A stretch of 64,000 nucleotides of DNA, taken from assembly GCA_964466585.1 (NCBI GenBank), contig CAYXSH010000004.1, forward strand, positions 14,463-78,462. Direction: 5' to 3'. Below the pieces are notes generated by a model, which did no database searches, was not told where the DNA came from, and worked only from the letters and a program-made list of their open reading frames with translations. Position numbers and translations under genes: made by a program. Within the stretch, counting starts at the first letter, position 1; each line of letters opens with the position of its first letter. Below, in pieces: positions 13,690 through 28,079 of the stretch. Source of the DNA: an uncultured Syntrophorhabdus sp. GTDB lineage: Bacteria; Desulfobacterota; Syntrophorhabdia; Syntrophorhabdales; Syntrophorhabdaceae.

Positions 13690-13724
13690 GGGGACACCCT
13701 GTAATCCTTCCCAGGGGTGTCCCC
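13690..13724 (+). terminator. 10-bp stem hairpin (ggggacaccc / gggtgtcccc); first arm plus loop belongs to the GGGACAYCCTGTAGTCCTCC motif family
   Basis: Read directly 11 nt after the 13679 stop. There is no T-tract after it, so terminator function is uncertain. Confidence 0.4.
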
Positions 13725-13917: not shown

Positions 13918-14127
13918 GTGCCTGAAGAAACGCAGGAGGCGGTCAGGAAATTCCTGAGGGCATTTAAGAAGATTGCAAAGGAGCACGGCATTTACTTTGT
14001 ACCGCGTGAGGGTTTCATCGAAACCTTGGGGTGGCTGGGTTATACGAAAGCCAATTGCTGCGAAGAGATCCTGGGTCTCACCGTTCCACCCGTCAAAGCA
14101 TCCCCTGCGTTTCCCTTTCAGAGATGA
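13918..14127 (+). CDS. Small protein, candidate toxin partner (MqsR-N-terminal-like, possibly truncated)
   Basis: The ORF-track TTG start (13882) overlaps the -10 box; GTG at 13918 follows GAGGAG. ETLGWLGYTKANCCEEILGLTV resembles the MqsR-family N-terminal region, but the catalytic C-terminal half is absent. Confidence 0.35.
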   Translation: MPEETQEAVRKFLRAFKKIAKEHGIYFVPREGFIETLGWLGYTKANCCEEILGLTVPPVKASPAFPFQR

Positions 14128-15144: not shown

Positions 15145-15145
15145 A

Positions 15146-15203
15146 GACATCCTGTAGTCCTCCTGTAATCGAAGTACCCGCCGGGACATCCTGTAGTCCT
15201 CCC
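15146..15203 (+). repeat. Two copies of the motif GGGACATCCTGTAGTCCTCC
   Basis: gacatcctgtagtcctcc at 15146-15163 and gggacatcctgtagtcctccc at 15183-15203, in the convergent gap between the 15144 and 15224 stops. Confidence 0.8.
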
Positions 15204-15223: not shown

Positions 15224-15817
15224 TCAGTTTTTCAGGTATTGAATTTCTCGCTCCAGCCATTCTTTGTGGAGTTGCAGAATGCTGTCAAAATTGTTTTGTG
15301 TATAGTACTCTTTGGGTTTTATCGCATTACCTTTTCCTTGAAAAATGTGTGGTGAATCATCGGGGAAATCAAACATTGCCCAAGCATCCCCAATGTCTAA
15401 TAAACCTTGGACGTAGTCTGTTGATAGATTACTCAGAACGCTTAAAATATAAATCACTCGCCACTTCCTAAACTCCTTCTTTCGATCAACATTTTCTTCC
15501 TCAGATAATTTTCGGAGCAGTTGTTTTATTTCCTCTATATCGGATTTATTTGCACCTGCTAGCAGAACTATGTTTCTAGACGCTTCGATATTCTCTAATA
15601 ACTTCTGTGTTGCATATTCTATAATATCTTCCGGCCTTAACTGTGGTGTAAATTGCCTTTCTCCGTTTAGTCCAATTTCAAGCAGACACCACGTAATTTC
15701 AAGGCCTATTCTGTTAAATTCCTTGATTTCAATAATGGTTATAGGGTGTCTACTTCTTTCCAATCTTTGCTTGGCCTCTATTACCTTGGATTTCAGCTGC
15801 TCTTCCGTAAAGTACAC
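15224..15817 (-). CDS. Hypothetical protein, last cassette of the orphan array (putative immunity-type protein)
   Basis: 197-aa AT-rich ORF with a GTG start. The frame stays open upstream to the element end at 15880 (..SLSDFVSGRFTKYEEDLEEYPG). No recognised family; the call rests on context. Confidence 0.4.
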   Translation of the reverse strand: MYFTEEQLKSKVIEAKQRLERSRHPITIIEIKEFNRIGLEITWCLLEIGLNGERQFTPQLRPEDIIEYATQKLLENIEASRNIVLLAGANKSDIEEIKQLLRKLSEEENVDRKKEFRKWRVIYILSVLSNLSTDYVQGLLDIGDAWAMFDFPDDSPHIFQGKGNAIKPKEYYTQNNFDSILQLHKEWLEREIQYLKN

Positions 15818-15879
15818 TCCTGGGTATTCTTCAAGGTCTTCCTCATACTTAGTAAACCGTCCTGATACAAAATCAGAGA

Positions 15880-16201
15880 GGGAGGGACGTCCTTAAATAT
15901 TTCAGTATCATTCTAACCGGAAGTTCTTCTCCTCCGCTATCTTCCGTCCCCTGGCCACCGCATAGCTGATCGCAGAGGGGGTCATGCCCGTCAGCCTTGC
16001 AAGGCCCGTAACGGATGTCCCGAGTTCCTAGAAGGAATCGGTACGATAGCGGCATTTCTAAGGCATCTGCTTCTTTCCCTATACCGCGGATCATTACGTG
16101 GTTGAGAACACCGGCTGCATCTATGCGGGGCTGGCGGGGCATGGGATCAGGGATTATGACAGGGAGTGCCAATTGAAATGTTTAAGGACGTCCCTATCCT
16201 A
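15880..16201 (-). mobile_element. MITE-like internally deleted derivative (copy A, 322 bp) of the 1080-bp Y1-transposase element
   Basis: Shares both ends with 18499..19578, including the 22-bp terminal inverted repeat AGGGACGTCCTTAAATATTTCA, and lacks ~760 bp of the interior. The 99-aa ORF 15873..16172 is a chimeric remnant. Confidence 0.85.
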
Positions 16202-16337
16202 GGTCAGTTTCTCGACCGACTCGACACGCTTATCCTTGCCATCAAGATAGTCCTCGATGATATCCCTGAAAACTGCCAGCACCTTCTCTCTCTTGGTCTC
16301 CAATAGCACGTGCCTATTTCTTGTTTAGGAAGGGAGA

Positions 16338-16361
16338 GGGAGGGACATCCTGTAGTCCTCC
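16338..16361 (+). repeat. Motif copy GGGAGGGACATCCTGTAGTCCTCC (resembles the low-coordinate element end GGGAGGGACGTCC)
   Basis: Read directly in the 360-bp non-coding spacer between copy A and the 16562 stop. Confidence 0.75.
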
Positions 16362-16561
16362 TCCACTCCCCTAGCGTGTCTCCATATTCATTTGCGCTGT
16401 CTCAAGGTCCATTTCTGTTCATTCTCCTCGGGTCGAGTGTCTCTGTCAAACCGGGATCAATATACGTTAAGGCAAATGCTATTGCGGTTTCATATCGATC
16501 TTCATTCCCTAGCGAGGTTGCTGTTGAATCATCCCGCAAAACAATGCAGGAAATATCCAAT

Positions 16562-16816
16562 TCATTTACTTTTATTATATTTCCATATCTTCTTTGCTAC
16601 GTCAAAACATTCACTGTAATTCCTAGTAAATACGTCATCCCCGAATTGATGAGTGAATATCTTCTTGATGCCCTCGGCCAAGTGTTCTACGTTAGGTGAT
16701 CTGTCTACCAGTCTCGTTATCGAATCAATCTCGACTTCGTATTCATCCTTTGGAGCACCAGGAAACAAGCCTATTGGATCCCATTGATTAACGATTGCTT
16801 CAATTGTGTTCTTCAT
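16562..16816 (-). CDS. Putative orphan immunity protein (DUF1871/YugE-like WDP motif, from memory)
   Basis: 84 aa, starts 12 nt after the stop of orphan toxin ORF 16829..17338. IVNQWDPIGL... pattern. AT-rich. Confidence 0.5.
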   Translation of the reverse strand: MKNTIEAIVNQWDPIGLFPGAPKDEYEVEIDSITRLVDRSPNVEHLAEGIKKIFTHQFGDDVFTRNYSECFDVAKKIWKYNKSK

Positions 16817-16828
16817 AACGCTTCCACC

Positions 16829-17338
16829 CTACTTCCCGTAAAGTCTATTCACCATGTCCACCATATTATGGTCAAACGTTTTTTTGGTATAAGCAGTTAT
16901 TAATTTGCCGTTCTGACTTACAACTGCCACGCCATCCTTTGATACAAAAAGATATTGGCCTCCTGATTGTTGTAGTGCTTTACCGCTGGCAACCCAGGCG
17001 TTGACCATTTCCTGAGTTATACCCCTTTCAGCCATTTTTTCCAACCCATGGACTGAGTTCATATTCCAATTCACATTTATCAAGGGATTCTGTACCAGTG
17101 TACCTAATTTCCCGAACGAAGTGCCTATTTTGACTTCTGCACCGGACAATCCCTTCTTGAAAAGACCTTTTAACCATTCCAGGCCTTTGCCGAATGTTTT
17201 GCTGATGATCTTTGGACTTCCTGCTCCCCCTCCCACAGAACCTATTACTACGTCCCTGATGAGTCTGTCGATCTGCCTGTCACTTTCTGCGTAGACGAAC
17301 AGAGGCGCGCCATATTCATCCCTTTGTGCCAGGAGGAG
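16829..17338 (-). CDS. Orphan CdiA-CT toxin module (no upstream start; DUF4258/BrnT-like HG..KMAERGI motif)
   Basis: Open frame runs from the element junction. Its first 21 codons LLLAQRDEYGAPLFVYAESDR match CdiA LLLSQKDDFGSPLFVYAASDR (14/21). The C-terminal part has SVHGLEKMAERGITQEMV. The ORF track begins at an internal GTG (17236). Confidence 0.7.
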   Translation of the reverse strand, partial: LLLAQRDEYGAPLFVYAESDRQIDRLIRDVVIGSVGGGAGSPKIISKTFGKGLEWLKGLFKKGLSGAEVKIGTSFGKLGTLVQNPLINVNWNMNSVHGLEKMAERGITQEMVNAWVASGKALQQSGGQYLFVSKDGVAVVSQNGKLITAYTKKTFDHNMVDMVNRLYGK

Positions 17339-17659
17339 GGAGGGACGTCCTTAAATATTTCAGTATCATTCTAACCGGAAGTTCTTCTCCTCCGCTATCT
17401 TCCGTCCCCTGGCCACCGCATAGCTGATCGCAGAGGGGGTCATGCCCGTCAGCCTTGCAAGGTCAGTCACGGATATCCCGAGTTCCCGGAAGGAATCGGG
17501 ATGATAGCGGCATTTCTAAGGCATCTGCTGCTTTCCCTATACCGCGGATCATGACTTGGTTGAGAACACCGGCTGCATCTATGCGGGGCTGGAGTGGCAT
17601 GGGATCAGGATTTATGACAGGGAGTGCCAATTGGAATATTTAAGGACGTCCCTATCCTA
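17338..17659 (-). mobile_element. MITE-like deletion derivative (copy B, 322 bp)
   Basis: Same ends and architecture as copy A. Belongs to the B/F sequence subtype (..tcagtcacggatatcccgagttcccggaagg..). Confidence 0.85.
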
Positions 17660-17693
17660 ATAAATAATAAAGGTATTTATAATTATGTTGACA

Positions 17694-17714
17694 GGAGGAC
17701 TACAGGGTGTCCCC
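17694..17714 (-). repeat. Motif copy (minus orientation) GGGGACACCCTGTAGTCCTCC
   Basis: ggaggactacagggtgtcccc read directly. It supplies the last codons and stop (GDTL*) of ORF 17700..18335. Confidence 0.75.
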
Positions 17715-18335
17715 TTCTTTCCACCTTTTTTCCCACAGATGATGTTGAAGTAATTTCACTTGTTCTTTCTTGAGGCCGGAGAAAATCACCCCTACGAGAA
17801 AATCATCCCGCATAACAAAAAAAGTATTATCAAATTGAATCATCCCGGTGATCAGGTTTTCGCTAGACCAATCAACTACAAATCGGTCCTTTTCCAAACA
17901 CAGCTTAAAATTGCACTCAATATCTCTGATAACAAAACCCATAGTAGGTTGTTGAGATACATCGTAGTCTATGATTGGTAAACCTTTTTTTACTGGCAAA
18001 GATGACCTATCAATAACCTCCAATAAATTGCTTTTTTCATATTCACCCACAGAAATTAAACCTATATACCTTATTTCTAATGAAAATGAATCGATCTTAA
18101 TCTCAATCAAAGAATACCGGGAATCACCCAAGCGATAATAGAAGAGACCAGCTGCTGGACTTGCCTCAATTTCGAAGATCAAAGGAACGTAATCATCTAT
18201 CTCAACTCTATATGGATAATATCGATTACTGGTACCTATCACTTTCACGGTTAGCCCTGCTAATATTTTGGTAATGCGTGAATCAATGCTGGGAACTGGC
18301 GCGGACCTCTCGGGGCAGAAAAAACTAATTCCCAA
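17700..18335 (-). CDS. Putative orphan immunity protein
   Basis: 211-aa AT-rich ORF. The ATG start overlaps the upstream 75-aa ORF by 76 bp. An in-frame GTG at 18248, just after that ORF's stop, would give a conventional toxin-immunity spacing. Confidence 0.45.
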   Translation of the reverse strand: MGISFFCPERSAPVPSIDSRITKILAGLTVKVIGTSNRYYPYRVEIDDYVPLIFEIEASPAAGLFYYRLGDSRYSLIEIKIDSFSLEIRYIGLISVGEYEKSNLLEVIDRSSLPVKKGLPIIDYDVSQQPTMGFVIRDIECNFKLCLEKDRFVVDWSSENLITGMIQFDNTFFVMRDDFLVGVIFSGLKKEQVKLLQHHLWEKRWKEGDTL

Positions 18336-18487
18336 CCGTTTACTGTATACAACTTACCATAGACTACGCCTCCCGAAATTGCTTTGTCAACGGCCGTTTC
18401 TAAACTTTTGAGTTGCATCTGAGAACCCAGATTAACTATTTCTTTACTGATACCACTTTTCAAACTTTGGCCAGCATATTCCTCCAT
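18260..18487 (-). CDS. Short orphan ORF, possible toxin C-terminal fragment
   Basis: 75 aa, directly abutting the 18499 end of the full element; the frame is open back to the element end. No recognised motif; the call rests on position only. Confidence 0.3.
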   Translation of the reverse strand: MEEYAGQSLKSGISKEIVNLGSQMQLKSLETAVDKAISGGVVYGKLYTVNGWELVFSAPRGPRQFPALIHALPKY

Positions 18488-18498
18488 ATGTTTTGGGA

Positions 18499-19578
18499 GG
18501 GAGGGACGTCCTTAAATATTTCAGTATCATTCTAACCGGAAGTTCTTCTCCTCCGCTATCTTCCGTCCCCTGGCCACCGCATAGCTGATCGCAGAGGGGG
18601 TCATGCCCGTCAGCCTTGCAAGGTCAGTCACGGATGTCCCGAGTTCTTGCGACGCGATGTAGCAGAAGAGGCTGCGCGCCTCGGCCTTCGGTGAATGGCG
18701 GCCCCTGGAGAGAATGTCGTCCTTTTTGATGCCGTAGAACACGGCGGCGATGCCGGCTATCCTGTCGACGGTATATCCCCTGTTCTTCAAGGTGAACCTG
18801 CGTTCGCAGATGTCTTCGGCCTCCCTGAGGACCTTCATCACGAAATCGCTCCCGCCGAGTATGCGCTGGTCACCCTTCAGCCTTTCCTTTGCGTTTTTGA
18901 TCTCCGTCCATCCCCCTATGCTCCTCACGAGGCCCCCGCCCGAAAGATCATCCCGTCTTCCCTGGCCGAGGGCGGACCCCACATATGCGCGGTAGGCTTT
19001 CTGCGCCCTTCGCCTATCATGCGAGAACATCCTGAGGACATACTGTGTGTCCTGCCATGGCCTCTCCCTGACACCCATAAGGGCGCTGTGTCCCGAATAG
19101 GGGAAAGTGCCGAGTTCGTCCATGGTGGAGACGATGCCGGCACGCACCGGGTTGAGGTGGATGTACCGGACGAGTTCCCTGAAATAGACCTCTTCGTCGC
19201 ATATGATCGATTTGTAGCGGTTCTGGAAGAGCTGGCCCGTTCTTTTGTGCCTCCTGTTGAATGATACCGCATAGCCCGTGAGGAGCTTTCTCATGAGATG
19301 GGCAATACCCATTGGGCCGCTCCTGAGGAGGAAGTGTGCGTGGTTCGACATGAACGCCCATGCGTAACAGGCCGTCTGAGTTTCTGGCAGGAGAGAGGAG
19401 AGCCTGCCGATGAGATCGTTCCTGTCCCTCATATCCCTGAATATGTTCCTTCTCTCTATACCACGGATCATTACGTGGTTGAGAACACCGGCTGCATCTA
19501 TGCGGGGCTGACGGGGCATGGGATCAGGGATTATGACAGGGAGTGCCAATTGAAATATTTAAGGACGTCCCTATCCTA
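18499..19578 (-). mobile_element. Full-length 1080-bp element with 22-bp terminal inverted repeats encoding a Y1 (HUH) transposase
   Basis: Ends: gggAGGGACGTCCTTAAATATTTCAgt... and ...TGAAATATTTAAGGACGTCCCTatccta. Carries the only intact transposase ORF of the family in this window. Confidence 0.85.
18527..19519 (-). CDS. IS200/RAYT-like Y1 transposase fused to a DnaA-domain-IV-like HTH
   Basis: N-terminus MPRQPRIDAAGVLNHVMIRG. HUH motif SNHAHFLL and Tyr motif RYIHLNPVRAG. C-terminus ILSRGRHSPKAEARSLFCYIASQELGTSVTDLARLTGMTPSAISYAVARG resembles DnaA C-terminal DNA-binding domains. The ORF-track TTG start (19549) lies in the TIR, so the ATG at 19519 is preferred. Confidence 0.85.
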   Translation of the reverse strand: MPRQPRIDAAGVLNHVMIRGIERRNIFRDMRDRNDLIGRLSSLLPETQTACYAWAFMSNHAHFLLRSGPMGIAHLMRKLLTGYAVSFNRRHKRTGQLFQNRYKSIICDEEVYFRELVRYIHLNPVRAGIVSTMDELGTFPYSGHSALMGVRERPWQDTQYVLRMFSHDRRRAQKAYRAYVGSALGQGRRDDLSGGGLVRSIGGWTEIKNAKERLKGDQRILGGSDFVMKVLREAEDICERRFTLKNRGYTVDRIAGIAAVFYGIKKDDILSRGRHSPKAEARSLFCYIASQELGTSVTDLARLTGMTPSAISYAVARGRKIAEEKNFRLE

Positions 19579-19779
19579 AGTACTCTCCTCCGGCTCGAAA
19601 CTCGGGTTTAAGGGGAAACCCTTTATGATGTGTGTTCTTAGACATTTGCGATGTGCGAATATGTATTGGATTTCTCTATCGTCATTTGCTGACCAGAGTG
19701 ATAAGTAGAGCATTTGGTCAGGGCTAATAGACTCGCCACAAAAACAACACACCGTCATCTCATTATTCATGCCAACCAT
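19576..19779 (-). CDS. Small Cys-rich protein (orphan cassette, immunity-like by position)
   Basis: 67 aa from the ATG at 19779 (MVGMNNEMTVCCFCGES...HRKC). The 172-aa ORF 19576..20094 in the track is a read-through chimera with copy D. Confidence 0.3.
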   Translation of the reverse strand: MVGMNNEMTVCCFCGESISPDQMLYLSLWSANDDREIQYIFAHRKCLRTHIIKGFPLNPSFEPEEST

Positions 19780-19801
19780 ACCTCGCTGCAAGTTTGTGGA
19801 G

Positions 19802-20123
19802 GGGAGGGACGTCCTTAAATATTTCATTATCATTCTAACCGGAAGTTCTTCTCCTCCGCTATCTTCCGTCCCCTGGCCACCGCATAGCTGATCGCAGAGG
19901 GGGTCATGCCCGTCAGCCTTGCAAGGCCCGTAACGGATGTCCCGAGTTCCTAGAAGGAATCGGTACGATAGCGGCATTTCTAAGGCATCTGCTTCTTTCC
20001 CTATACCGCGGATCATTACGTGGTTGAGAACACCGGCTGCATCTATGCGGGGCTGGCGTGGCATGGAATCAGGAATTATGACAGGGAGTGCCAATTGAAA
20101 TATTTAAGGACGTCCCTATCCTA
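19802..20123 (-). mobile_element. MITE-like deletion derivative (copy D, 322 bp; A/D subtype)
   Basis: Same ends as copies A-C. Its interior matches copy A almost base for base. Confidence 0.85.
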
Positions 20124-20128
20124 GGTCT

Positions 20129-20214
20129 TGCATCTATGCGGGGCTGGCGTGGCATGGAATCAGGAATTATGACAGGGAGTGCCAATTGAAATATTTAAGG
20201 ACGTCCCTATCCTA
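20129..20214 (-). mobile_element. 86-bp element fragment (copy E), exact duplicate of the high-coordinate end of copy D
   Basis: 20129-20214 is identical to 20038-20123, separated from it by ggtct. Confidence 0.8.
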
Positions 20215-20455
20215 CATAGCTGATCGCAGAGGAGGTCATGCCCGTCAGCCTTGCAAGGTCAGTCACAGATGTCCCGAGTTCCCGGAAGGAATCGGGATGA
20301 TAGCGGCATTTCTAAGGCATCTGCTTCTTTCCCTATACCACGGATCATTACGTGGTTGAGAACACCGGCTGCATCTATGCGGGGCTGGCGGGGCATGGGA
20401 TCAGGGATTATGACAGGGACTGCCAATTGAAATATTTAAGGACGTCCCTATCCTA
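20215..20455 (-). mobile_element. Truncated MITE-like copy (copy F, 241 bp; lacks the low-coordinate TIR; B/F subtype)
   Basis: Starts at catagctgatcgcagagg (an internal position of the element) and ends with the standard ...aaggacgtccctatccta. Confidence 0.8.
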
Positions 20456-20474: not shown

Positions 20475-20948
20475 CTAGGTTTCGCAGTTTAGATCATACT
20501 TGATTGTTATATCTCTCCCCCAACATCTGATAATCAATTCATTGTCATTGTATTCAATGTCCTCAAATAAATCCGGCAGATCGTATTCATCCAGTATCTC
20601 GAGAGATGTCATGTCAATGATCACGATCTCCAATTGGGTAATAACAAGAAGTCTGTTTCTATAAAGCTTTTGCGTTAGAAAATAGGAAGAGAGATAAAGA
20701 TTTATGGGTATGGTCGCATCGTTAAGGTTTGCTATTGCATAATTCTGATCAATTCCAATGGAAATTATGCCGGGGTAGACCTCAAGTACATCGGGTTTAA
20801 TTAGTTCACTTCTCCATGCCAGACGGAAACAGTTCCTCTTATTTGTTAATATTCCAAACATTCTATTATATGGAGCATTATCGAAGAGAATGGGGCAATC
20901 TGTTTTTTCAAATTCATCCTCAGATACTTCTTTTAATACAAGATTCAT
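20475..20948 (-). CDS. cdiI: CDI immunity protein (cognate to the resident CdiA-CT)
   Basis: 157-aa AT-rich ORF starting 15 nt after the cdiA stop. No recognised family; called on canonical position. Confidence 0.6.
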   Translation of the reverse strand: MNLVLKEVSEDEFEKTDCPILFDNAPYNRMFGILTNKRNCFRLAWRSELIKPDVLEVYPGIISIGIDQNYAIANLNDATIPINLYLSSYFLTQKLYRNRLLVITQLEIVIIDMTSLEILDEYDLPDLFEDIEYNDNELIIRCWGRDITIKYDLNCET

Positions 20949-20963: not shown

Positions 20964-23900
20964 CTATTTATATATTATTGGAATTATGGTTGTAACAGAG
21001 GGAGCAACATTCATATTACCCCCAGCGTAGAAGAATCCTACATCTATTTTCCCAACATTCCCAACGTTAACACTCTTAGTCACGGTAACTCCATAGTTGC
21101 TCGTTGTTGTCCTGATAATATTTCCACCATTAAAGGCTTCATTAAGTGTGTTTATTAACTGATTTTCGCTTTTGATGCCCAAGGTTGTCAAGTCTCTCAA
21201 GTTTTGGGCCGATCTTGCAATATTATGCTCAGATCCTTGGGTGACTCTGCCGAAGAAATAGTCGAACTTACCAGAATTAACATTAAAACCTTTCGTAACG
21301 GCTGTCGTTACCGTTTCTGCTTTTCCTACCCCTGCCGATCTAAGAAGCGCCCTAAGCCCCGCCTTGAAGCCGTTCCAACTTAGAGAGGCTCCTGTCTCGA
21401 CCAGTCCGCCGGCGATACCCGCGACCAAAATTGCATTTCCCACAGGGGTTTCTTTGTTCACGGCGTCATTGATTCTGTCGCTTGCAGCATATACAAACAG
21501 GGGGCTGCCAAAATCATCTTTCTGGGACAGCAACAGTTTCCGTTCTTCCGAATACTCTTCTGTATTCCCAATATTCTGGTTCACCTTCAAGATCCTGTAC
21601 CCAAGATCCGTTTCCGATATTCCATCCGCACAGTGAACCAATGCACATGATGCCAGGCTCAGGCGTTCTTCCGCCTGCTCTTCGCTAGCGTATCCGAGTT
21701 CCTTCCATTTCTTCTTGAGCCGGTCGAGAACCTGCCGTTCAGTCTCATGCAGCCGTCTGTTGTACCTCTCCCCGTCCAGTGCCGTTGCCGCCCCTGTCAT
21801 GGCGCCGGATGTGTTGCCCGATGCTATGGACCCTGCGGCGGCACCCACAACGACCGATGCCCACTGCTGGAGGTCCTTCGGGAGGTTCTCGGTGAGGTTC
21901 CGGGATATCTCCGCCGCCCCTGCCCCCAGGGCGCCGGACAGGACGTCCCCGCCGCCTAAGCTTGCCTGGAGCCCCCCGGTGAATGCGTGGAGGGCGGCCT
22001 TCATGGCCCCTGTGTCCTTCCACAGGTCGTAGCGGTCCTGGTATTCATTCTGGGCGGCAAGGGCCTGCGCTATGTCCTCACGTGCCCTCGTCTCGGTAAA
22101 GCCTTCCTTCTCGCAGGCGGCAAGGAACTCCTGTTCCGATCCGGTGAGGCCGTCCCTTCCCTTGAGGTCGAGGTAGGTGCGGGCCGCGGACTCCTTGAGC
22201 TTCGCGTCCTCGTAGGGTTTCGTCATCGCCTTCCCTATGTCGCCCACGGCCTCGAAGGCAAGCTCCCCGAAGAGCCTCGCCGTCTCTCTTTGCTCTTCAA
22301 CCGTCTTCTGGTCGAAGATCTTGCCCAGGGTCTCGTGGGCGTTCTTCGTGTCGCGGCTCAGGGAGCCTATGTCCTGGCCCGGGTTCGAGCGTATCTCTAT
22401 AGTCCCCGGGGCTATGGCGGCGAGGGTCATCGTCGATGAGCTCCCCGTCTGGGAGACGCCCACCCGGGGGGCCATGCTGACGCTGCCGCTGCCGAATCCC
22501 GCGCTTATGCCGCGGCTCGAGCTGTCGTAGTCCGCGGTGTTCTCGATGTTGCTGTAGGTGAGGGTGTTCGTCGAGAGACGGTTGCTGCTCGTCCCCGACG
22601 CCATGACGGAGCCCTTCAGGTCGGTGTTGCCGCCGACGGTGATGTCGAACCCTCCCGTCCCGGCATGGATGCCTGACTGTTCCGTTACGGAGCGGTAGTT
22701 AGAGTCCGTCGAGTCCTCCGTATAATTGAAGTACCCCGATGGTGCCCCGAAGCCGAACACGGGGATGGTGATCCCCGCCTGCATGGAGCTCGACTCGGAG
22801 GTATAGGTGTCTATGTCCTGCCTGCTTACGATGCTGAGGTTCCGGCCTATGTTCGCCTTCACGGTATCGCCGCTCACGACGGCGCCCATGAGGGTCGTGT
22901 CCCTGCCGCTGTCTATGGCAAGGACGTCCCTCGCCCTGATATGCGTGTTCTTGTTGGTGAGGGTGAAGCCCTCGGCGCTGCCTTCCGACATGGCTATATT
23001 GGCGGAGATGGAGAAGCCCGTGTTGGCACCCACGGAGAAGCTCACGCCGACGTCCCCCGATATGCTCTCCGAGCTGGACGTGAGTTTGCTCGTGTCCTCC
23101 GCAGAGAGGAGCTTTATGTCGTTGTTGGCCTTGAGGGAGACGTTCGTCCCCTCGATGGCGGAGCCGATGACGTTCAGGTCGCCGGTGCCGGCCTTTGCGT
23201 TCCCGCCCGCGTCTTTTCGGCCCCGCGCCTCCACAAAGACATCGCCGGCCGAGGAGATGCTGCTCCCCTTTGCCTGCCTTGATTCGATGGCCGTCTCCGA
23301 CTCGCTCCTGCTCTCCCCGTACTTTAAGGTAATGCCTATGCTCGCCGCGGCCGTGGGGTTTGAGGCGATGCCGGCGAGCTTGCTTGCGCCCTTGTAGATC
23401 TCCTTGGCCGCTTTCAATGTGCTCAAAGCGGCAAGGCGGCTGTCGGATGCACCCGACGCCCGGTCAAGTGAGGTCTTTGCGGCGTCGTAGGTGTTCATGA
23501 CGGCATCGAGAATGGGGTTGGAGAGGGACAGCGTGAGGCCGGAGCTCGAAGACTCCGTTGTCTCCCTGTATTCCCGCGTGTTGTATGCCGCATCTATCGT
23601 GATGTTCTCGCCGCTTATGCTCGTCCCTGCCGCCGAGAGGATGTCGCTGCCCGTTATCTTTGTGTCCTTGCCGGAGTAAATGTCGACCCAACCGGTGACG
23701 GAGCCGACGGTGCTGCCCAGGTGGTTCGTGCCTTTATCCTCTATCGTGCTCTTGTTGGACACGCTGCCCCAGGTGATCCCCACACCCGCGCCCATGAGGC
23801 CCGAGGTCTCCTCGGAGACCATATGTTCCTCCACGAACGTCTCCCGGGCGGTGGTGATGTCGATGTTGTCCTTCGCCGCGAGGGACACGTCTTTAGTCCC

Positions 23901-26900
23901 GACGACGTTGCTTCCCCGTACTGCCAGGTCCCTGCCGGAATCGATGACGACGTCCTCGCCGGAGACCGTGCTGCCTCTCGCCAGGACCTTGAGCGAATAG
24001 TCACGGGTCTTTGTCGTCGTGCTGGATAGGGACCCGCCGCTCTCCTTTTCCTGTTCGAGGAGGCTTTCATGGCGCTCGCTCTCTTCCCTGATATTTATGT
24101 CGTTGTCCGCGACGATGCCGACCATGCCGGACTTGCTCGTCACGGTGCTCCCGACGATCTCCACGTTGCCCTTGCCGTCCGCGCGCGGGCCGTCTGTCTC
24201 TTTCGTGGCGGCGATGAGGGCGTTTCCCCCGGCCGTAACCTCGCTGCCGATGACCTTTTCGTGATCTTCCTTTTGAACGAATCTGTCGCCGGAGACCCCG
24301 CGGTAGTCACTGTCCTTCACGGCGGCCATCTTGACGTCCCCTCCCGCCTGCAGTGTGAGGTCCCCTCCCGCCTCCATTTTGGTCCCCGTGAACGACGCGT
24401 CGCTGCCTGCCGACATGGCCAGATTCCCGCCGGCCCCGATACTGCTCGTCACGTGGCGCGTCGTGCTCTCGCTGTAAAAAACGGTGTTCAGGCCCTGATC
24501 GTGCTGCACGGTCTCCGACCTGATGTCCCGTCCGGCAGTTACCGCGGTGTCCCCCGCGGACGATATGCTCCCGCCCCGCATCACAACGTCGCGGCCCGCC
24601 TCCATCGCGAGGTCCCCACGGGATACTATACGGGCCGTGTCATGGATAAGCGTCGTGTTGCGCGGGCCGTTGGTCCTGCTTTCCGCAAGCGTGACGTTCT
24701 GTATGTCCCTGCCGGCGGACAGGACGGTCGTTTCACCCGAGATCTTGCCGCTCTGGTTCAGGATGTCCCCGGAGGCCCTGAGGCTCGTCAGGCCGCCCGA
24801 GTCGACCGTTCCCCCGCGGTTGAGAATCGTGGACGCTTCAAGGGAGGTGACCGCGTCCCCCCTGATCGTGCCGGAGTTTGTTATGTTCCCGCTTACCGTG
24901 AGCTCGACGTGCTTCGCAGCGATCACTGCGCCCGCGGGAACGTCACCCGTAGCCGCCGATGCGAGGTAGACGACCGGTACCAGGACCTTCTGGCCTTCGA
25001 CGATGCGTTCTTCGAGCCATACCATGTCGGAGGTGAGCGCCGCCATCTGCCCGGCAGAAAGTGACACGCCAACGGCCACTTTGAATTCCTCCGCATAATC
25101 CACGGCGTTTTCCATGAGGGCCCTGAACTGGTCCTCGTTATTCGTAAAATTGGAGAGGAACCTGCGGCCGGTGAGCTGCAATACCTGGTTCTCAACAAGC
25201 TTCTGCTCGTAGAAGCCGTCGCCGAGGCGCTTCATGACGTAATGCGGGTCGCAGGACATGCGGCTGAGCATGTAATCGGACGAGAGAAAGGACGCATAGC
25301 TGGTGAAGCGCGGATCGGTCTCGACGAGGTATTTCCGGCCGGGGTCCGTGTAGATGTGGTATAGGCCGCTTGACGGCAGGGTGATATCATTCAGTCCCGT
25401 CGTGCTGCTGCCGGGTGCCGCGCCGCCCGCAGAGGCCCCGCTGCCCGGGGGAAGCGTGGAGGAGAAAGAACCTGTGACCGAACCGGACGGGTTCACCGTC
25501 TCATTGTTGATCGTTGCCGCGGTCCCCTTGATGGCCAAATTGGCGGATATGACGGACGGCCAGCCGGGAAGGGCCTCGTACGTCACTTCATTGTACGGTG
25601 TTATTCTCCACTCCTCGAAGTCCATGTCGTCGATATACACCACGTGTGTCCCGTCACGGGTGGTCACTCTCGACGCGCCGACGTCCTTGTTGTCCTTGGC
25701 CGTGACTTCGAAGAAAAGGTTGGCGCCCGCGGCAATGGTAGAAACACGGTTGGTCAGCGTCTCTACCCGTATGTTCATGTTCCTGCCTGAAAGGATCATG
25801 CCGGGGGCGCTGTCCTCGAGCACCCGGGTCTCGGTTATGGTCTCCTCGTACGAGAGGTAATTATAAATAGTCGCCTCGCCGGGACGACGAAGGTCCACAT
25901 GGTGATGCGTGGGCTCGCCTATCTGCACCTGCCCGGTGGTGAACACCTTCCTGCGGTTCGTGATGTCCCGGGCGAATATGGTGAGATCGTTATCCGCTTC
26001 TATCACCGAGGACTCGTTATATAACGTCCCCGCCGCGTCGAGATAATTGCCGGGGACGTCCCTGCGGGAGCTTCCCGCGATGTTGATATCGCCCAGGCTG
26101 TAGATCGTCGCTTCGTCCTTGTTCGTTAAGGAATTCACGGGATAAAGGTTGATCGTGTCCGTCGCGCCGAGGATGGCGGACGGTCCCTGGTTCAGTATGT
26201 CCTGCGCCGATATGCTCAAGGTGCCGGCGAAAACGGAGCCGTAGTTCGTTAAATTGCCCGTATTGATGTTCACCGCTCCGTACCCGGCGATGGTGCCGCT
26301 GTTCGTTATGCCCGTGCCGATGTTCAGGTCAACGTTGCCGCCCTCTATCGTCCCGTCGTTCGCGAGGGAAGAACCGTCGAGGGTCGCCGTCTCCACGGCG
26401 CTCATTAGGCCGTAGTTTGCGATCGGGCCGGAAGCGGTAAGCGTCAGGTTGCGGTTGGCCTTCAGGCTTTTCCCGGATTCATTGGTGAAATCGCCCGACA
26501 GGCTCACCGTCAGGTCGCGCCCGGACAGTATCTCATCGATGCCGGTGACCGACTGCGCTGTTATGGCCATGTCCCCGTCGGAGACTATTCTCCCGCCGGG
26601 ACCGCTGACGGCTCCGGCGGTAAGGTCCAGATTGCCGCCCGCACCTATCCCTCCGTTGGTGTTCGCCAGGGAAGATGACAACAGGCCGACGGTCAGGTTG
26701 CCGGAGGAAAAGATCGTCCCGTCCGTATTGTCGATGCCCGCAGCGATGACGGACATATCGCCTCCGGACAGGACCATGCCGCCGGTGTTGTCGATACCAC
26801 CGGCGGCGGTAAGTGAGGCATTTCCCCCGGCCCGTGTGCTGCTGTCCGCTATGTCGATCGCGGCGGCGTTGACACGCAGATCGCCTGCGGCGGCCGTCTG

Positions 26901-28079
26901 GTTCTTCAGGACGGCATCCCCCGACACGTCGATCACCATGTCACCGGCGTCCTTTAACCGGCCGTTTTGGTCTATCCCCGAACCCAGGACGCCTGTCGAT
27001 GAGATCGACGCCCCGCGAAGAGTCATGTTCCCGCCCGCGGTTAACGTTCCGGTGTTCAGCAGCGAACCGCTGCTCTCGAAAGAGGCATTCTGCCGGCTGT
27101 AGAGCGTGCCGGTATTGGCAATCCCCCCGGCTGCCTTCATCGCGATATTGGCGGAGGCGGATGTATCCCCTGTCAGCATCACCATGCCTTCGATCGTAAC
27201 GGTCAGATCGCCGTTCATGGCGGCAAGGGTGCCGGCGCTGTTAACGCCGACCCCCCGCTCGGTGCCTATGAGCATGATCCTGTCCGCGTACATGCCGCCC
27301 AAGGCCGCGACGTCTATCGCCACCGCCGGCCTGTCCCCCTCGCCCTCGATCACCTTTATCCCGGGGCCCGTGTAATCCACGCTGTTGGACCCGGTGACCA
27401 CGCTGAGGTTCTTCGCCCAGATCTCGCTGTTGACCCTGAGTGAGCGGGCGATGAGGTCCACCCGGTCGGCCGCCGTGTCGATGAGCCCCCCGCCTTCGAC
27501 GGCGATGTCGCCGCGCGTGACACGGAAGCCGTCAAGGCTGCCCGCCGGGCTGATAACGGGCACGCCGGTCGTTAAGACCCCGCGCGAGGCATTGATAAAG
27601 CCGCAGCCGGAGCAGGTGATGCCGTTGGGGTTGGCGACGACAAGGTCGGCGCGCTGGCCGGCTATCTCCATAAAACCGTTCAGATGGCTGCGGTTGGCGC
27701 TCGTCACTTCGTTCAGGATGAGCCTGGCGGGTCCGTTCACGAGAAAGGGATTGGAGGCGACCCAGCCGCCGAGCTGGGTCTGGGCATTTGCCTGGCTGTT
27801 GTTGAGGATGAGCCCCCCGGGGCCGACGTTGAATTGAGTGTACCTGTTGTGGGACACACCCGACGCATTGGGGGTCGTTACCTGGACTATCTCCCTCCCG
27901 TTGCTTGTCGTCTCGACCTGCGGGCGGCGCGTCCCTGCGCCGGGGTCGGCCACGACCTGCCCGATGGCGGACAACGGCTGCAGGATGAATGACAGCACGA
28001 TCAGCCAGATCAAACGGCGTCTGGATCGAGATGATAGTAAAACGCGATGTTTTGTCGGTTCCTGTACGTTATAGTGCAA
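20964..28079 (-). CDS. cdiA: Contact-dependent inhibition toxin / filamentous-haemagglutinin-family TpsA exoprotein
   Basis: 2371 aa with signal sequence. TPS-domain motifs NASGVSHNRYTQFNV and ANPNGITCSGCGF. Long G/S/T/N-rich FHA repeats and a conserved mid-block GDGFYEQKLVENQVLQLTGRRFL...VLVPVVYL. Variable AT-rich C-terminal ~170 aa. Confidence 0.95.
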   Translation of the reverse strand: MHYNVQEPTKHRVLLSSRSRRRLIWLIVLSFILQPLSAIGQVVADPGAGTRRPQVETTSNGREIVQVTTPNASGVSHNRYTQFNVGPGGLILNNSQANAQTQLGGWVASNPFLVNGPARLILNEVTSANRSHLNGFMEIAGQRADLVVANPNGITCSGCGFINASRGVLTTGVPVISPAGSLDGFRVTRGDIAVEGGGLIDTAADRVDLIARSLRVNSEIWAKNLSVVTGSNSVDYTGPGIKVIEGEGDRPAVAIDVAALGGMYADRIMLIGTERGVGVNSAGTLAAMNGDLTVTIEGMVMLTGDTSASANIAMKAAGGIANTGTLYSRQNASFESSGSLLNTGTLTAGGNMTLRGASISSTGVLGSGIDQNGRLKDAGDMVIDVSGDAVLKNQTAAAGDLRVNAAAIDIADSSTRAGGNASLTAAGGIDNTGGMVLSGGDMSVIAAGIDNTDGTIFSSGNLTVGLLSSSLANTNGGIGAGGNLDLTAGAVSGPGGRIVSDGDMAITAQSVTGIDEILSGRDLTVSLSGDFTNESGKSLKANRNLTLTASGPIANYGLMSAVETATLDGSSLANDGTIEGGNVDLNIGTGITNSGTIAGYGAVNINTGNLTNYGSVFAGTLSISAQDILNQGPSAILGATDTINLYPVNSLTNKDEATIYSLGDINIAGSSRRDVPGNYLDAAGTLYNESSVIEADNDLTIFARDITNRRKVFTTGQVQIGEPTHHHVDLRRPGEATIYNYLSYEETITETRVLEDSAPGMILSGRNMNIRVETLTNRVSTIAAGANLFFEVTAKDNKDVGASRVTTRDGTHVVYIDDMDFEEWRITPYNEVTYEALPGWPSVISANLAIKGTAATINNETVNPSGSVTGSFSSTLPPGSGASAGGAAPGSSTTGLNDITLPSSGLYHIYTDPGRKYLVETDPRFTSYASFLSSDYMLSRMSCDPHYVMKRLGDGFYEQKLVENQVLQLTGRRFLSNFTNNEDQFRALMENAVDYAEEFKVAVGVSLSAGQMAALTSDMVWLEERIVEGQKVLVPVVYLASAATGDVPAGAVIAAKHVELTVSGNITNSGTIRGDAVTSLEASTILNRGGTVDSGGLTSLRASGDILNQSGKISGETTVLSAGRDIQNVTLAESRTNGPRNTTLIHDTARIVSRGDLAMEAGRDVVMRGGSISSAGDTAVTAGRDIRSETVQHDQGLNTVFYSESTTRHVTSSIGAGGNLAMSAGSDASFTGTKMEAGGDLTLQAGGDVKMAAVKDSDYRGVSGDRFVQKEDHEKVIGSEVTAGGNALIAATKETDGPRADGKGNVEIVGSTVTSKSGMVGIVADNDINIREESERHESLLEQEKESGGSLSSTTTKTRDYSLKVLARGSTVSGEDVVIDSGRDLAVRGSNVVGTKDVSLAAKDNIDITTARETFVEEHMVSEETSGLMGAGVGITWGSVSNKSTIEDKGTNHLGSTVGSVTGWVDIYSGKDTKITGSDILSAAGTSISGENITIDAAYNTREYRETTESSSSGLTLSLSNPILDAVMNTYDAAKTSLDRASGASDSRLAALSTLKAAKEIYKGASKLAGIASNPTAAASIGITLKYGESRSESETAIESRQAKGSSISSAGDVFVEARGRKDAGGNAKAGTGDLNVIGSAIEGTNVSLKANNDIKLLSAEDTSKLTSSSESISGDVGVSFSVGANTGFSISANIAMSEGSAEGFTLTNKNTHIRARDVLAIDSGRDTTLMGAVVSGDTVKANIGRNLSIVSRQDIDTYTSESSSMQAGITIPVFGFGAPSGYFNYTEDSTDSNYRSVTEQSGIHAGTGGFDITVGGNTDLKGSVMASGTSSNRLSTNTLTYSNIENTADYDSSSRGISAGFGSGSVSMAPRVGVSQTGSSSTMTLAAIAPGTIEIRSNPGQDIGSLSRDTKNAHETLGKIFDQKTVEEQRETARLFGELAFEAVGDIGKAMTKPYEDAKLKESAARTYLDLKGRDGLTGSEQEFLAACEKEGFTETRAREDIAQALAAQNEYQDRYDLWKDTGAMKAALHAFTGGLQASLGGGDVLSGALGAGAAEISRNLTENLPKDLQQWASVVVGAAAGSIASGNTSGAMTGAATALDGERYNRRLHETERQVLDRLKKKWKELGYASEEQAEERLSLASCALVHCADGISETDLGYRILKVNQNIGNTEEYSEERKLLLSQKDDFGSPLFVYAASDRINDAVNKETPVGNAILVAGIAGGLVETGASLSWNGFKAGLRALLRSAGVGKAETVTTAVTKGFNVNSGKFDYFFGRVTQGSEHNIARSAQNLRDLTTLGIKSENQLINTLNEAFNGGNIIRTTTSNYGVTVTKSVNVGNVGKIDVGFFYAGGNMNVAPSVTTIIPIIYK

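What the first reader, a model, noticed from the sequence alone, without database searches (positions are those of the whole stretch)
15224..20455. Orphan toxin/immunity cassettes separated at every boundary by same-orientation copies of one Y1-transposase element family
Seen: downstream of cdiI (minus strand) lie four short AT-rich cassettes. They are 19576-19779 (67-aa Cys-rich ORF), 17700-18487 (75-aa ORF plus 211-aa ORF), 16562-17338 (CdiA-CT-like ORF plus 84-aa ORF) and 15224-15880 (197-aa ORF). Every boundary carries an element copy in the same orientation: F+E+D (20455-19802), C (19578-18499, full length), B (17659-17338) and A (16201-15880). In A, B and C the frame leaving the element end (TAA GGA CGT CCC TCC CTC) runs straight into the next ORF. 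Established: orphan cdiA-CT/cdiI arrays, sometimes with IS elements nearby, are known (Poole 2011). Inference: the strict repeat-cassette-repeat layout resembles an integron-like array. The 322-bp direct repeats are substrates for cassette deletion, duplication or excision as circles. An HUH transposase acting on ssDNA could also mobilise cassette-plus-repeat units.
Basis: partly seen in the sequence, partly recalled or inferred. Interest (0 to 1): 0.75.

Follow-up and report, generated by a model that had tools for sequence, protein, structure and literature searches.

The report
Transposon remnants interleaved with orphan toxin cassettes
Downstream of a bacterial contact-dependent toxin operon, spare toxin/immunity gene modules are separated by one intact copy and five shortened copies of a known type of tyrosine-transposase mobile element; the layout is real, but it looks like ordinary transposon spread and recombination rather than a new integron-like gene-capture system.

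Summary
A cdiB-cdiA-cdiI operon (minus strand, 29868-20475) is followed by four AT-rich modules. Every boundary carries a same-orientation copy of one element.

The element is a known kind, a TIRtron: an HUH/Y1 "TIRYT" transposase with a DnaA-domain-IV-like HTH, flanked by about 25-bp terminal inverted repeats (Di Nocera 2013; Quentin 2018, subclass 2.1.2). Copy C is intact. A, B, D and F come from a single 322-bp internal-deletion derivative (MITE-like), and E is an 86-nt left-end stub.

Independent short-read assemblies from at least 12 samples reproduce four junction sets at 99.9-100% identity with copy-specific SNPs. Assembly artefact is therefore excluded for those junctions.

All 10 matches to the repeat core in the 64-kb window lie within this 4.6-kb stretch. 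In other genomes the same core is scattered as single copies or hairpin doublets and is not linked to CDI. Homologous toxin arrays elsewhere have no such elements between their cassettes.

No integrase or attC-like site was found, and no alternative junction or circle. Copies show a mosaic SNP pattern, which points to recombination between them.

Best reading: local proliferation of a non-autonomous element, followed by repeat-mediated rearrangement and erosion. This is an instance of the already reported "orphan arrays with intervening transposase genes". Interest is modest.

The parts
28165..29868 (-). cdiB (TpsB-type outer-membrane transporter, 567 aa)
   Evidence: ORF. The identical gene on Logan contig L023 carries POTRA_2, POTRA_3 and ShlB.
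20964..28079 (-). cdiA (filamentous haemagglutinin-type effector, about 2350-2371 aa). The pre-toxin motif ALDGERYN lies near aa 2100. The variable C-terminal region follows it.
   Evidence: TPS and Fil_haemagg_2 domains on the identical Logan gene. Homologues diverge after ALDGE(R/K)YN. GC falls after about aa 2105. No PT-VENN domain was detected.
20475..20948 (-). cdiI-like ORF (157 aa), starting 16 nt after the cdiA stop codon
   Evidence: No family hit. GC 0.36. The immunity role is inferred from position.
20215..20455 (-). Copy F: short (MITE-type) element truncated at its 3' end after ...CAGCTATG. It follows a GGAAAGAAGGGACC remnant that resembles the second TIR family.
   Evidence: The cdiI-to-F junction is reproduced at 100% identity in 6 Logan contigs.
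20129..20214 (-). Copy E: 86-nt left-end stub of the D subtype, followed by a 5-nt AGACC
19798..20123 (-). Copy D: complete short element (about 323-326 bp)
   Evidence: It is 98.4% identical to copy A.
19576..19779 (-). Cassette 1: 67-aa CCxC...C ORF of unknown function. Its stop codon is the TAG at the start of copy C's left end, so the ORF may be truncated at its 3' end.
   Evidence: Only a sub-threshold VATC treble-clef hit, E = 0.0013.
18497..19578 (-). Copy C: autonomous TIRtron. The TIRYT gene occupies 19519-18527 (330 aa counted from MPRQ), flanked by about 25-nt terminal inverted repeats.
   Evidence: Y1_Tnp E = 6e-10 and Bac_DnaA_C E = 4e-7. REP_Tyr_transpos 61 bits, below the cutoff of 80. 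The HUH motif (H60-A-H62) and Y119 are invariant in 30 homologues. The C-terminus matches DnaA domain IV, 2z4r, E = 9e-5. It is 80.6% identical over 1084 nt to an element in MAG Ja1-D5_bin-237.
18260..18487 (-). Cassette 2, first ORF (75 aa). It is possibly a 5'-truncated toxin fragment and abuts the right end of C.
   Evidence: No family hit. Logan contig L117 (12 samples) spans C right end, cassette 2 and B left end at 99.9% identity.
17700..18335 (-). Cassette 2, second ORF (211 aa in the mechanical ORF list; called as 182 aa in Logan). Presumed immunity gene.
   Evidence: No family hit.
17693..17722 (+). Second TIR family (GGGGACACCCTGTAGTCCTCC). It overlaps the stop codon of the 211-aa ORF and forms an inverted pair with 16333-16362.
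   Evidence: (I2). It fits the TIRYT TIR consensus GGGGWSAS of Di Nocera 2013.
17336..17659 (-). Copy B: complete short element (322 bp)
16829..17335 (-). Cassette 3 orphan cdiA-CT. It has no start codon of its own upstream of GTG 17236. Its sequence LLLAQRDEYGAPLFVYAESDR is homologous to cdiA aa 2183-2203. The toxin domain is DUF4258-like (BECR/RelE superfamily).
   Evidence: Logan contigs L029-L032 reproduce B, cassette 3 and A at 100% identity.
16562..16816 (-). Cassette 3 immunity candidate (84 aa, DUF1871)
   Evidence: DUF1871 E = 6.5e-7. The same toxin/DUF1871 adjacency occurs in the unrelated locus L114.
16202..16561 (-). Eroded spacer. It holds a remnant homologous to part of the 211-aa gene (16527-16562), a second-family TIR (16333-16362), and a gene 3' fragment that ends at the TAG of copy A.
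   Evidence: (D3, I2)
15878..16201 (-). Copy A: complete short element (322 bp)
   Evidence: As ssDNA the TIRs pair into a panhandle, -61.5 kcal/mol, z = -4.6.
15224..15817 (-). Cassette 4: DUF2247/Imm38 immunity-family ORF (197 aa) with no toxin fragment
   Evidence: DUF2247 E = 2e-33. Described as Imm38 in PMC11566119. At least 10 Logan contigs span A right end, cassette 4 and the downstream region at 100% identity.
15145..15202 (-). Two direct copies of the second-family TIR, marking the distal end of the array

Best explanation
This is a cdiBAI contact-dependent inhibition locus whose orphan toxin/immunity tail has been colonised by a TIRtron. A TIRtron is a mobile element that encodes a TIRYT: an HUH/Y1 transposase of the RAYT-like clade with a C-terminal DnaA-domain-IV-type HTH, bounded by about 25-bp terminal inverted repeats.

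Shown:
- Copy C is intact.
- The short copies all carry one and the same internal deletion (129 nt of left part, 48 nt of filler, 146 nt of right part). They therefore descend from one non-autonomous derivative.
- Copies cluster in 4.6 kb, in one orientation, without target-site duplications.
- Their SNPs are mosaic.

Inferred:
- The derivative was mobilised in trans by C's transposase and hopped locally into the dispensable, AT-rich orphan region.
- The uniform orientation comes from strand-specific single-strand insertion, as known for IS608/ISDra2-type Y1 enzymes.
- Homologous recombination, gene conversion and adjacent deletions between the same-orientation copies then trimmed the array. 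Each surviving module now abuts one copy. This would account for the 5'-truncated CT fragments at right ends, the ORFs ending in the TAG of left ends, the immunity-only modules and the F/E stubs.

On this reading the elements are passengers and agents of rearrangement, not a dedicated cassette-capture device.
For: - **Element identity:**, plus the literature read.
- **Single origin of the short copies:** all share one deletion junction and one filler.
- **Clustering:** 10 of 10 core matches lie within 4.6 kb of a 64-kb window. For 5 independent uniform insertions P is about 1e-4.
- **No target-site duplication and no shared left-flank tetranucleotide**.
- **Recombination between copies:** a four-gamete pattern among A, B, D and F.
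- **Truncated stubs F and E**.
- **Internal deletions recur in this family elsewhere:** L013, L003, L037, L055, L081 and L108.
- **Elsewhere the family is dispersed in unrelated contexts,** often next to TA modules.
- **Homologous toxin arrays lack the element**.
- **Precedent:** intervening transposase genes in orphan arrays are already reported.
- **The structure is real:** independent contigs reproduce the junctions.
Against: - The whole genome of the source organism is not available, so true genome-wide copy number and enrichment are unknown.
- Transposition by a TIRYT has never been demonstrated, so trans-mobilisation and strand bias are borrowed from IS200/IS605.
- Same orientation of 5 copies has only P of about 0.06 under random orientation.
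- The right ends of B and (weakly) C abut CT fragments at nearly the same codon of the cdiA-CT frame. Random insertion does not predict this.
- Exactly one boundary element per cassette is tidier than simple neutral accumulation would give.
Confidence: 0.6

Rival explanations
1. Cassette shuttle. The TIRYT uses the left end of one copy and the right end of a downstream copy to excise element-cassette-element units as single-stranded circles and reinsert them. The array would then behave like an integron or composite transposon for toxin/immunity modules.
For: - Strict repeat-cassette-repeat layout in one orientation, with an intact transposase inside the array.
- As ssDNA the TIRs pair.
- Bin-237 locus L003 also has two same-orientation copies flanking one small gene.
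Against: - None of the recovered contigs shows a cassette in another context or order.
- No second example at any toxin locus among about 115 loci that carry the TIR.
- Homologous modules elsewhere sit in arrays without the element.
- F and E are dead-end stubs, not units.
Confidence: 0.08
2. Portable homology. The 322-bp copies serve mainly as anchors for RecA-dependent recombination. Modules are gained, lost or swapped between genomes and arrays that share the element, so the array was assembled by homologous recombination rather than by transposition into a pre-existing array.
For: - Mosaic SNP pattern among the copies.
- Copies are 94-98% identical and long enough for RecA, whereas the CT homology to cdiA is only about 63 nt.
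- Elements have host-like GC while the cassettes are AT-rich and unrelated to each other.
Against: - No polymorphic arrangement was seen in at least 12 samples.
- The closest element outside this organism is only 80% identical, so donor arrays with a matching element are not in evidence.
Confidence: 0.15
3. REP-like regulatory role. The TIR-bearing copies were retained between modules because they act as transcript-end or stabiliser structures, or as insulators, for the orphan genes, as proposed for REP/BIME elements.
For: - Both TIR families sit at or just after stop codons.
- The TIR core contains the palindrome GGGACGTCCC and pairs strongly.
- In other MAGs solo TIRs lie between small TA modules.
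Against: - No terminator-like or promoter-like signal above chance.
- No Rfam match.
- A 322-bp unit carrying transposase-gene debris is not needed for such a role.
- No expression data are available.
Confidence: 0.07
4. Assembly artefact. The repeats were mis-joined, so the order or the very existence of the interleaving is spurious.
For: Short-read assemblies break at every copy, so a repeat-rich region like this is error-prone. The D-cassette 1-C junctions and the F/E/D nest were not independently confirmed.
Against: Four junction sets (cdiI-F; C-cassette 2-B; B-cassette 3-A; A-cassette 4-flank) are reproduced at 99.9-100% identity. They extend 27-129 nt into the copies and match the copy-specific SNPs. 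They come from several projects' samples.
Confidence: 0.03

Closest known systems
CDI orphan cdiA-CT/cdiI arrays with intervening mobile-element genes (Poole 2011; Ruhe 2016, PMC4927057)
   Same: - A cdiBAI operon followed, in the same orientation, by AT-rich displaced modules.
- One CT fragment keeps homology to the upstream cdiA.
- Immunity-family ORFs are present (DUF1871, DUF2247/Imm38).
- A transposase gene lies inside the array.
   Different: - The intervening element is a TIRYT/TIRtron plus its MITE-like derivatives.
- One copy sits at every boundary.
- The CT homology is short and lies about 80 residues downstream of the pre-toxin motif, which here is ALDGERYN rather than VENN.
- The organism is an uncultured anaerobe, not a proteobacterial pathogen.
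TIRtrons / TIRYT (Di Nocera 2013, PMC3733652) = TnpA(REP)-like subclass 2.1.2 (Quentin 2018, PMC6006769)
   Same: - An HUH/Y1 transposase related to RAYTs, with a C-terminal Bac_DnaA_C-type HTH.
- The gene is flanked by terminal inverted repeats instead of REP hairpins.
- TIR copies occur as singles, dimers or clusters in genomes.
   Different: - The TIR core here (GGGACGTCCTTAAATATTTCAAT) departs from the published GGGGWSAS motif. A second TIR family in the same region fits that motif.
- Here the element has spawned a 322-bp internal-deletion derivative that still carries gene debris, clustered at one locus.
REPIN/RAYT systems (Bertels & Rainey 2011)
   Same: - A single full-length Y1 gene plus multiple non-autonomous inverted-repeat derivatives.
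- In a Syntrophales MAG the same core forms tight inverted doublets resembling REPINs.
   Different: - REPINs are about 100-bp doublets of REP hairpins dispersed genome-wide and inherited vertically.
- Here the units are 322 bp, local, and the family's TIR is identical across phyla, which suggests horizontal spread.
- The NCBIfam RAYT model scores below its cutoff.
IS200/IS605 family (IS608, ISDra2)
   Same: - Y1 HUH catalytic core.
- No target-site duplication.
- Orientation uniformity is expected from strand-specific ssDNA transposition.
   Different: - IS200/IS605 elements have subterminal hairpins, no TIRs, and a fixed target tetra- or pentanucleotide at the left flank. Here TIRs are present and the left flanks differ.
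- No tnpB is present.
Integron cassette arrays
   Same: A co-oriented series of short, mostly promoterless modules, each bounded by a structured repeat.
   Different: - No IntI, attI or attC.
- The repeat is a transposon deletion derivative.
- Modules hold one or two genes or fragments.
- There is no evidence of cassette excision.

Membership tests
CDI (cdiBAI) locus with orphan modules | TpsB-type transporter with POTRA and ShlB domains | tested here: met
   The identical gene on L023 carries PF08479, PF17287 and PF03865.
CDI (cdiBAI) locus with orphan modules | Large CdiA with a TPS secretion domain and haemagglutinin repeats | tested here: met
   PF05860 and PF13332 on the identical 2349-aa gene.
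CDI (cdiBAI) locus with orphan modules | Pre-toxin demarcation motif (VENN, or ELYN-type) followed by a variable CT | tested here: inconclusive
   No PT-VENN hit in the last 511 aa. Homologues share ...AATALDGE(R/K)YN... and diverge afterwards, and GC drops there. This is consistent with a non-VENN motif but is not proven.
CDI (cdiBAI) locus with orphan modules | Orphan CT fragment lacking a start codon, homologous to the upstream cdiA, followed by a small immunity ORF | tested here: met
   Cassette 3 has 15/21 identical residues to cdiA 2183-2203 and is open up to the element's stop codon. A DUF1871 ORF follows. The same pair is adjacent in L114. Cassettes 1, 2 and 4 meet this feature only by position, or, for cassette 4, by the Imm38 family hit.
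CDI (cdiBAI) locus with orphan modules | Toxin activity and specific neutralisation by the cognate immunity protein | not testable with these tools
   Needs expression and competition assays.
TIRtron / TIRYT (subclass 2.1.2) | Y1 HUH transposase fold with the HUH motif and the catalytic Tyr | tested here: met
   PF01797 E = 6e-10. H60-A61-H62 and Y119 are invariant in 30 homologues.
TIRtron / TIRYT (subclass 2.1.2) | C-terminal HTH of Bac_DnaA_C / HTH_23 / HTH_28 type | tested here: met
   PF08299 scores 30.3 bits, just under the gathering score of 31.5. A profile of homologues hits DnaA domain IV, 2z4r, E = 9e-5. PF08299 is precomputed on most homologues.
TIRtron / TIRYT (subclass 2.1.2) | Gene flanked by terminal inverted repeats rather than REP hairpins | tested here: met
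   A 21-nt perfect inverted core at both ends of C and of relatives L014, L111, L075 and L084.
TIRtron / TIRYT (subclass 2.1.2) | TIR carries the GGGGWSAS motif (the majority type in Di Nocera 2013) | tested here: not met
   The core reads AGGGACGT. The second TIR family in the window (GGGGACAC...) does fit. The motif holds for 'some' TIRs only, so it is not strictly defining.
RAYT (REP-associated tyrosine transposase) equivalog | Scores above the NCBIfam NF047646 cutoff and is flanked by REP hairpins | tested here: not met
   61.4 bits against a cutoff of 80. The flanks are TIRs, not REPs.
MITE-type non-autonomous derivative | Short, non-coding, has both ends of an autonomous element with an internal deletion, and is present in several copies | tested here: met
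   322 bp = 129 nt of 5' part + 48 nt of filler + 146 nt of 3' part of C. The junction is identical in A, B, D and F. The frame is broken.
IS200/IS605 | Subterminal hairpins without TIRs, and a conserved target tetra- or pentanucleotide at the left flank | tested here: not met
   TIRs are present. The left flanks are ACC, ACC, ACC, ACT, TAT and ATG.
Integron | intI tyrosine recombinase with attI next to the array | tested here: not met
   No Phage_integrase hit among the array ORFs or the 10 flanking ORFs scanned. The rest of the window was not scanned.
Integron | attC site at each cassette boundary, and cassette excision as circles | not tested
   No attC model was run. The boundary repeat is fully accounted for as a derivative of element C. 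Detecting circles needs reads.

The most novel reading that the evidence does not exclude
The TIRYT and its 322-bp derivatives form a working cassette system for polymorphic toxins. Pairing of a left end with a downstream right end on single-stranded DNA lets the HUH transposase excise and reinsert toxin/immunity modules. Alternatively, the copies are selected as portable recombination sites. Either way the result would be an integron-like repertoire exchanger driven by a Y1 enzyme instead of a tyrosine recombinase.
Probability: 0.07. Interest if true: 0.75.

Novelty: new member of a known kind. Interest (0 to 1): 0.3.

Why it matters
As it stands, this is a clean, independently reproduced example of how a little-studied transposon class (TIRYT/TIRtron) generates non-autonomous derivatives and remodels a polymorphic-toxin locus in an uncultured anaerobe.

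It offers three practical things:
- A defined TIR core, identical over 21 nt in elements whose transposases are only 48-84% identical.
- An apparently intact enzyme for biochemical tests of TIRYT function.
- A CdiA lineage that uses an ALDGE(R/K)YN boundary instead of VENN.

It would become important only if repeat-bounded modules were shown to move or be exchanged as units. That would add a new mechanism for diversifying toxin/immunity repertoires.

Tried and rejected
- **Source genome:** I looked for it in the GTDB representative genomes using the TIR core. It is not there. The closest element is 80% identical, in MAG Ja1-D5_bin-237. Genome-wide copy number therefore could not be counted.
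- **Metagenome scan with the core:** 78 loci, none from the same organism and none with a comparable array.
- **Exact look-up of the transposase ORF and of its NCBI-called 261-aa form:** no contig was returned. The cluster look-up shows one NCBI contig of 80,842 bp, with no name.
- **Close relatives of cdiA, for comparing CDI tails:** the best hit is only 46-54% identical, so no sister-strain comparison was possible.
- **Alternative junctions in Logan contigs for cdiI and cassettes 2, 3 and 4:** every one is identical to the window.
- **Same-strand TIR pairs in L051, L093, L045, L060, L110, L064 and L109, examined for toxin cassettes:** none was found. L045 has TA modules separated by solo TIRs. 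L089 has three same-strand second-family TIRs, but these lie between ordinary genes.
- **Rfam, promoter/terminator scan, viral contigs and the plasmid collection:** nothing informative.
- **Pfam at lenient thresholds for the 67-, 75-, 157- and 211-aa ORFs and the cdiA tail:** no hit that could be believed.
- **phmmer of the transposase against the PDB:** no hit. Only the profile search found the DnaA-like C-terminus.
- **Homology of the cassette 2 N-terminus (KHMEEYAGQSL) to the cdiA 'DDFGSPLF' stub:** rejected as significant. Only about 4 residues match.
- **The 'stop codon supplied by the element' idea:** rejected as meaningful. The left end TAGGATAG has stop codons in two of three frames.

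Full report
**1. What is in the sequence**

The minus strand carries a canonical two-partner-secretion CDI operon.
- cdiB: 29868-28165.
- cdiA: 28079-20964.
- A 157-aa ORF (20948-20475) starting 16 nt after the cdiA stop codon.
- On independent Logan contigs the identical genes carry POTRA/ShlB and TPS/Fil_haemagg_2 domains.

Downstream, GC falls from about 0.6 to 0.36-0.45 in four short modules. The blocks between them have GC 0.52-0.56, like the window average of 0.57.

**2. The repeats**

- A 21-nt core, GGGACGTCCTTAAATATTTCA, occurs 10 times in the 64-kb window (up to 3 mismatches). All matches lie between 15884 and 20448, against 0 expected.
- Matches on opposite strands pair up as terminal inverted repeats.
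- Copy C (19578-18497, about 1.08 kb) is full length.
- A, B and D are 322-326 bp. F is a copy truncated at its 3' end. E is an 86-nt left-end stub.
- All lie in the same orientation, co-directional with the operon.
- Each short copy is built from 129 nt of C's left part, a 48-nt filler and 146 nt of C's right part. The junctions are identical in every copy. They therefore descend from one internal-deletion derivative.
- There are no target-site duplications. The nucleotides left of the shared TAGGATAGGG end differ between copies.

**3. What the element is**

- C encodes a 330-aa protein (counted from MPRQ) with a Y1_Tnp domain (E = 6e-10) and a Bac_DnaA_C-type HTH.
- The NCBIfam RAYT model hits at 61 bits, below its cutoff of 80.
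- In 30 homologues the HUH motif (H60-A-H62) and Tyr119 are invariant. The C-terminus aligns to DnaA domain IV (2z4r, E = 9e-5).
- The family is very large: at least 7,974 proteins at E <= 1e-20.
- This architecture has been described. Quentin et al. 2018 place Y1 proteins with Bac_DnaA_C/HTH extensions in TnpA(REP)-like subclass 2.1.2. They equate the subclass with the "TIRYT" of Di Nocera et al. 2013, whose genes are flanked by TIRs ("TIRtrons") and whose TIRs occur as singles, dimers or clusters.

A second repeat, GGGGACACCCTGTAGTCCTCC, has five copies between 13.7 and 17.7 kb. It fits the published TIRYT motif GGGGWSAS. Two TIR families therefore populate this tail.

**4. The element family elsewhere**

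- The exact core occurs in 22 loci of representative genomes. These are Syntrophales, other Desulfobacterota-type ("delta"), Acidobacteriota, Aminicenantes and Bacteroidales MAGs.
- It also occurs in 78 metagenome loci.
- It appears as solo copies or as tight inverted doublets. In about 22 of 100 loci it lies immediately upstream of a TIRYT gene or an N-terminal fragment of one.
- Transposases that share the identical core are only 48-84% identical.
- No locus approaches the window's density. At three or fewer mismatches, the setting used for the window's ten, the most found in one locus is six, in L067 and L109, spread over about 5 kb. At exact match the most is four, against eight in the window. 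The nearly complete Syntrophales MAG has 14 exact hits spread over five large contigs.
- Contexts are varied: housekeeping neighbours, defence genes and, quite often, TA modules.
- None of these loci is a CDI or polymorphic-toxin locus.
- Independent internal deletions of the element recur, for example in L013 and L003.

**5. The cassettes**

- Cassette 3 is a bona fide orphan.
  - Its ORF is open from the element's TAA.
  - It reads LLLAQRDEYGAPLFVYAESDR, against LLLSQKDDFGSPLFVYAASDR at cdiA residues 2183-2203.
  - It ends in a DUF4258-like domain. DUF4258 is a BECR/RelE-superfamily family. Homologues of this domain sit in other organisms' orphan arrays.
  - Its 84-aa neighbour is DUF1871. 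The same toxin/DUF1871 adjacency occurs in L114.
- Cassette 4 is a lone DUF2247/Imm38 gene.
- Cassettes 1 and 2 have no family support.
- In this CdiA lineage the variable region begins after ALDGE(R/K)YN, near residue 2105. Homologues diverge there and GC drops there. The cassette 3 fragment is therefore truncated by about 80 residues at its 5' end, exactly where copy B ends.
- ORFs running into left ends stop at the element's TAG. This is expected, because TAGGATAG has stop codons in two of three frames.
- The spacer before copy A holds gene debris.

**6. Is it an artefact?**

Logan short-read contigs from at least 12 samples, drawn from several projects, break inside every copy. They nevertheless reproduce these junction sets at 99.9-100% identity:
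- cdiI to F;
- C right end, cassette 2, B left end;
- B right end, cassette 3, A left end;
- A right end, cassette 4, downstream flank.

The contigs reach 27-129 nt into the copies and match the copy-specific SNPs. Identity to the other copies over the same stretch is only 94-98%.

Assembly artefact is excluded for those junctions. The F/E/D nest and the D-cassette 1-C junction remain unconfirmed. No alternative arrangement was seen.

**7. Mechanism**

Shown:
- Single origin of the short copies.
- Clustering: P is about 1e-4 for five uniform insertions.
- Uniform orientation: P is about 0.06.
- A four-gamete SNP mosaic: F is C-A, D is T-G, A is C-G and B is T-A at alignment columns 50 and 158. 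This indicates recombination or gene conversion among the copies.
- As ssDNA the TIRs pair into a panhandle (-61.5 kcal/mol, z = -4.6).

Inferred:
- C's transposase mobilised the derivative locally into a dispensable region.
- Strand-specific ssDNA insertion gave the uniform orientation.
- Repeat-mediated deletions and adjacent deletions then compacted the array, leaving one copy at each junction.

This reading explains the truncated CT fragments, the immunity-only modules and the stubs F and E. It does not explain why the boundaries are so tidy. It also does not explain why the right ends of B and (weakly) C meet CT fragments at nearly the same codon.

**8. The integron-like idea**

- No integrase lies among the ORFs I scanned.
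- No attC-like unit is needed. The repeat is a transposon remnant.
- No circle or variant junction was found.
- Homologous modules elsewhere sit in arrays with only 30-40-nt gaps and no TIR (L115).
- Ruhe et al. [quoted passage not shown]

The cassette-shuttle and portable-homology readings are not excluded, but they have no positive evidence.

**9. Verdict**

- The element is a member of a known but little-studied class.
- The locus is a new example of a known situation.
- The novel functional interpretation is unsupported so far.
- Interest is 0.3. The exciting reading has a probability of about 0.07.

Noticed in passing
window 13690-13710, 15145-15163, 15184-15202, 16333-16362, 17693-17722: A second repeat family, GGGGACA(C/T)CCTGTAGTCCTCC, occurs only in and just beyond the orphan tail. 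It fits the published TIRYT TIR motif GGGGWSAS and contains GTAG. One inverted pair (17722/16333) brackets copy B plus cassette 3. The same motif occurs three times on one strand in L089 and once in L085, at the 3' ends of ordinary genes.
   Followed up: partly
window 14082-14085 (compare L118 1834-1975): A Logan contig from a different project (DRR490230) has 142 bp more here, bounded by a 4-nt AACG repeat. The window therefore carries a deletion that shortens the small ORF from 125 aa to 69 aa. That ORF lies upstream of, and is co-oriented with, the MqsA-HTH/SocA-Panacea antitoxin gene (14146-15144, + strand). It is probably the partner toxin, inactivated.
   Followed up: partly
L004, L011, L012, L020, L033, L054, L067, L074, L104, L109 and others: In a Syntrophales MAG and many metagenome contigs the same 21-27-nt core forms perfect inverted doublets with 4-25-nt spacers. 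These are REPIN-like mini-elements made of TIRs only. The core is identical in elements whose transposases are only 48-84% identical and in MAGs assigned to different phyla.
   Followed up: partly
L003, L008, L018, L045, L111: Solo TIRs or TIRtrons of this family repeatedly lie next to or between small toxin-antitoxin modules: RelE/RHH, HigBA, MazEF/PIN, HepT-MNT and ParE. No background rate was computed, so enrichment is unproven.
   Followed up: no
window 21750-21790 (cdiA aa about 2095-2110): This CdiA lineage lacks a PT-VENN domain. It shares the motif AATALDGE(R/K)YN(R/Q)LH with distant homologues, and both sequence similarity and GC content fall away after it. This is a candidate pre-toxin boundary motif resembling the Burkholderia (E/Q)LYN type.
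   Followed up: partly
window 16527-16562 versus 17801-17836: A 36-nt stretch just after the DUF1871 gene is 78% identical to an internal part of the 211-aa cassette 2 gene. It looks like a remnant of a lost paralogous immunity gene in the eroded spacer.
   Followed up: no
window 19576-20094: In copy D a frame through the short element stays open across the right TIR and fuses with the 67-aa cassette 1 ORF, giving a 172-aa mechanical ORF. This is probably fortuitous.
   Followed up: no
L112/L113 3214-4287: A 72%-identical TIRtron sits between ORFs annotated SPM and Beta-barrel_AprE. These look like the two halves of one HlyD-type gene, which would be a possible gene-disrupting insertion, next to xerC-hslVU.
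   Followed up: no
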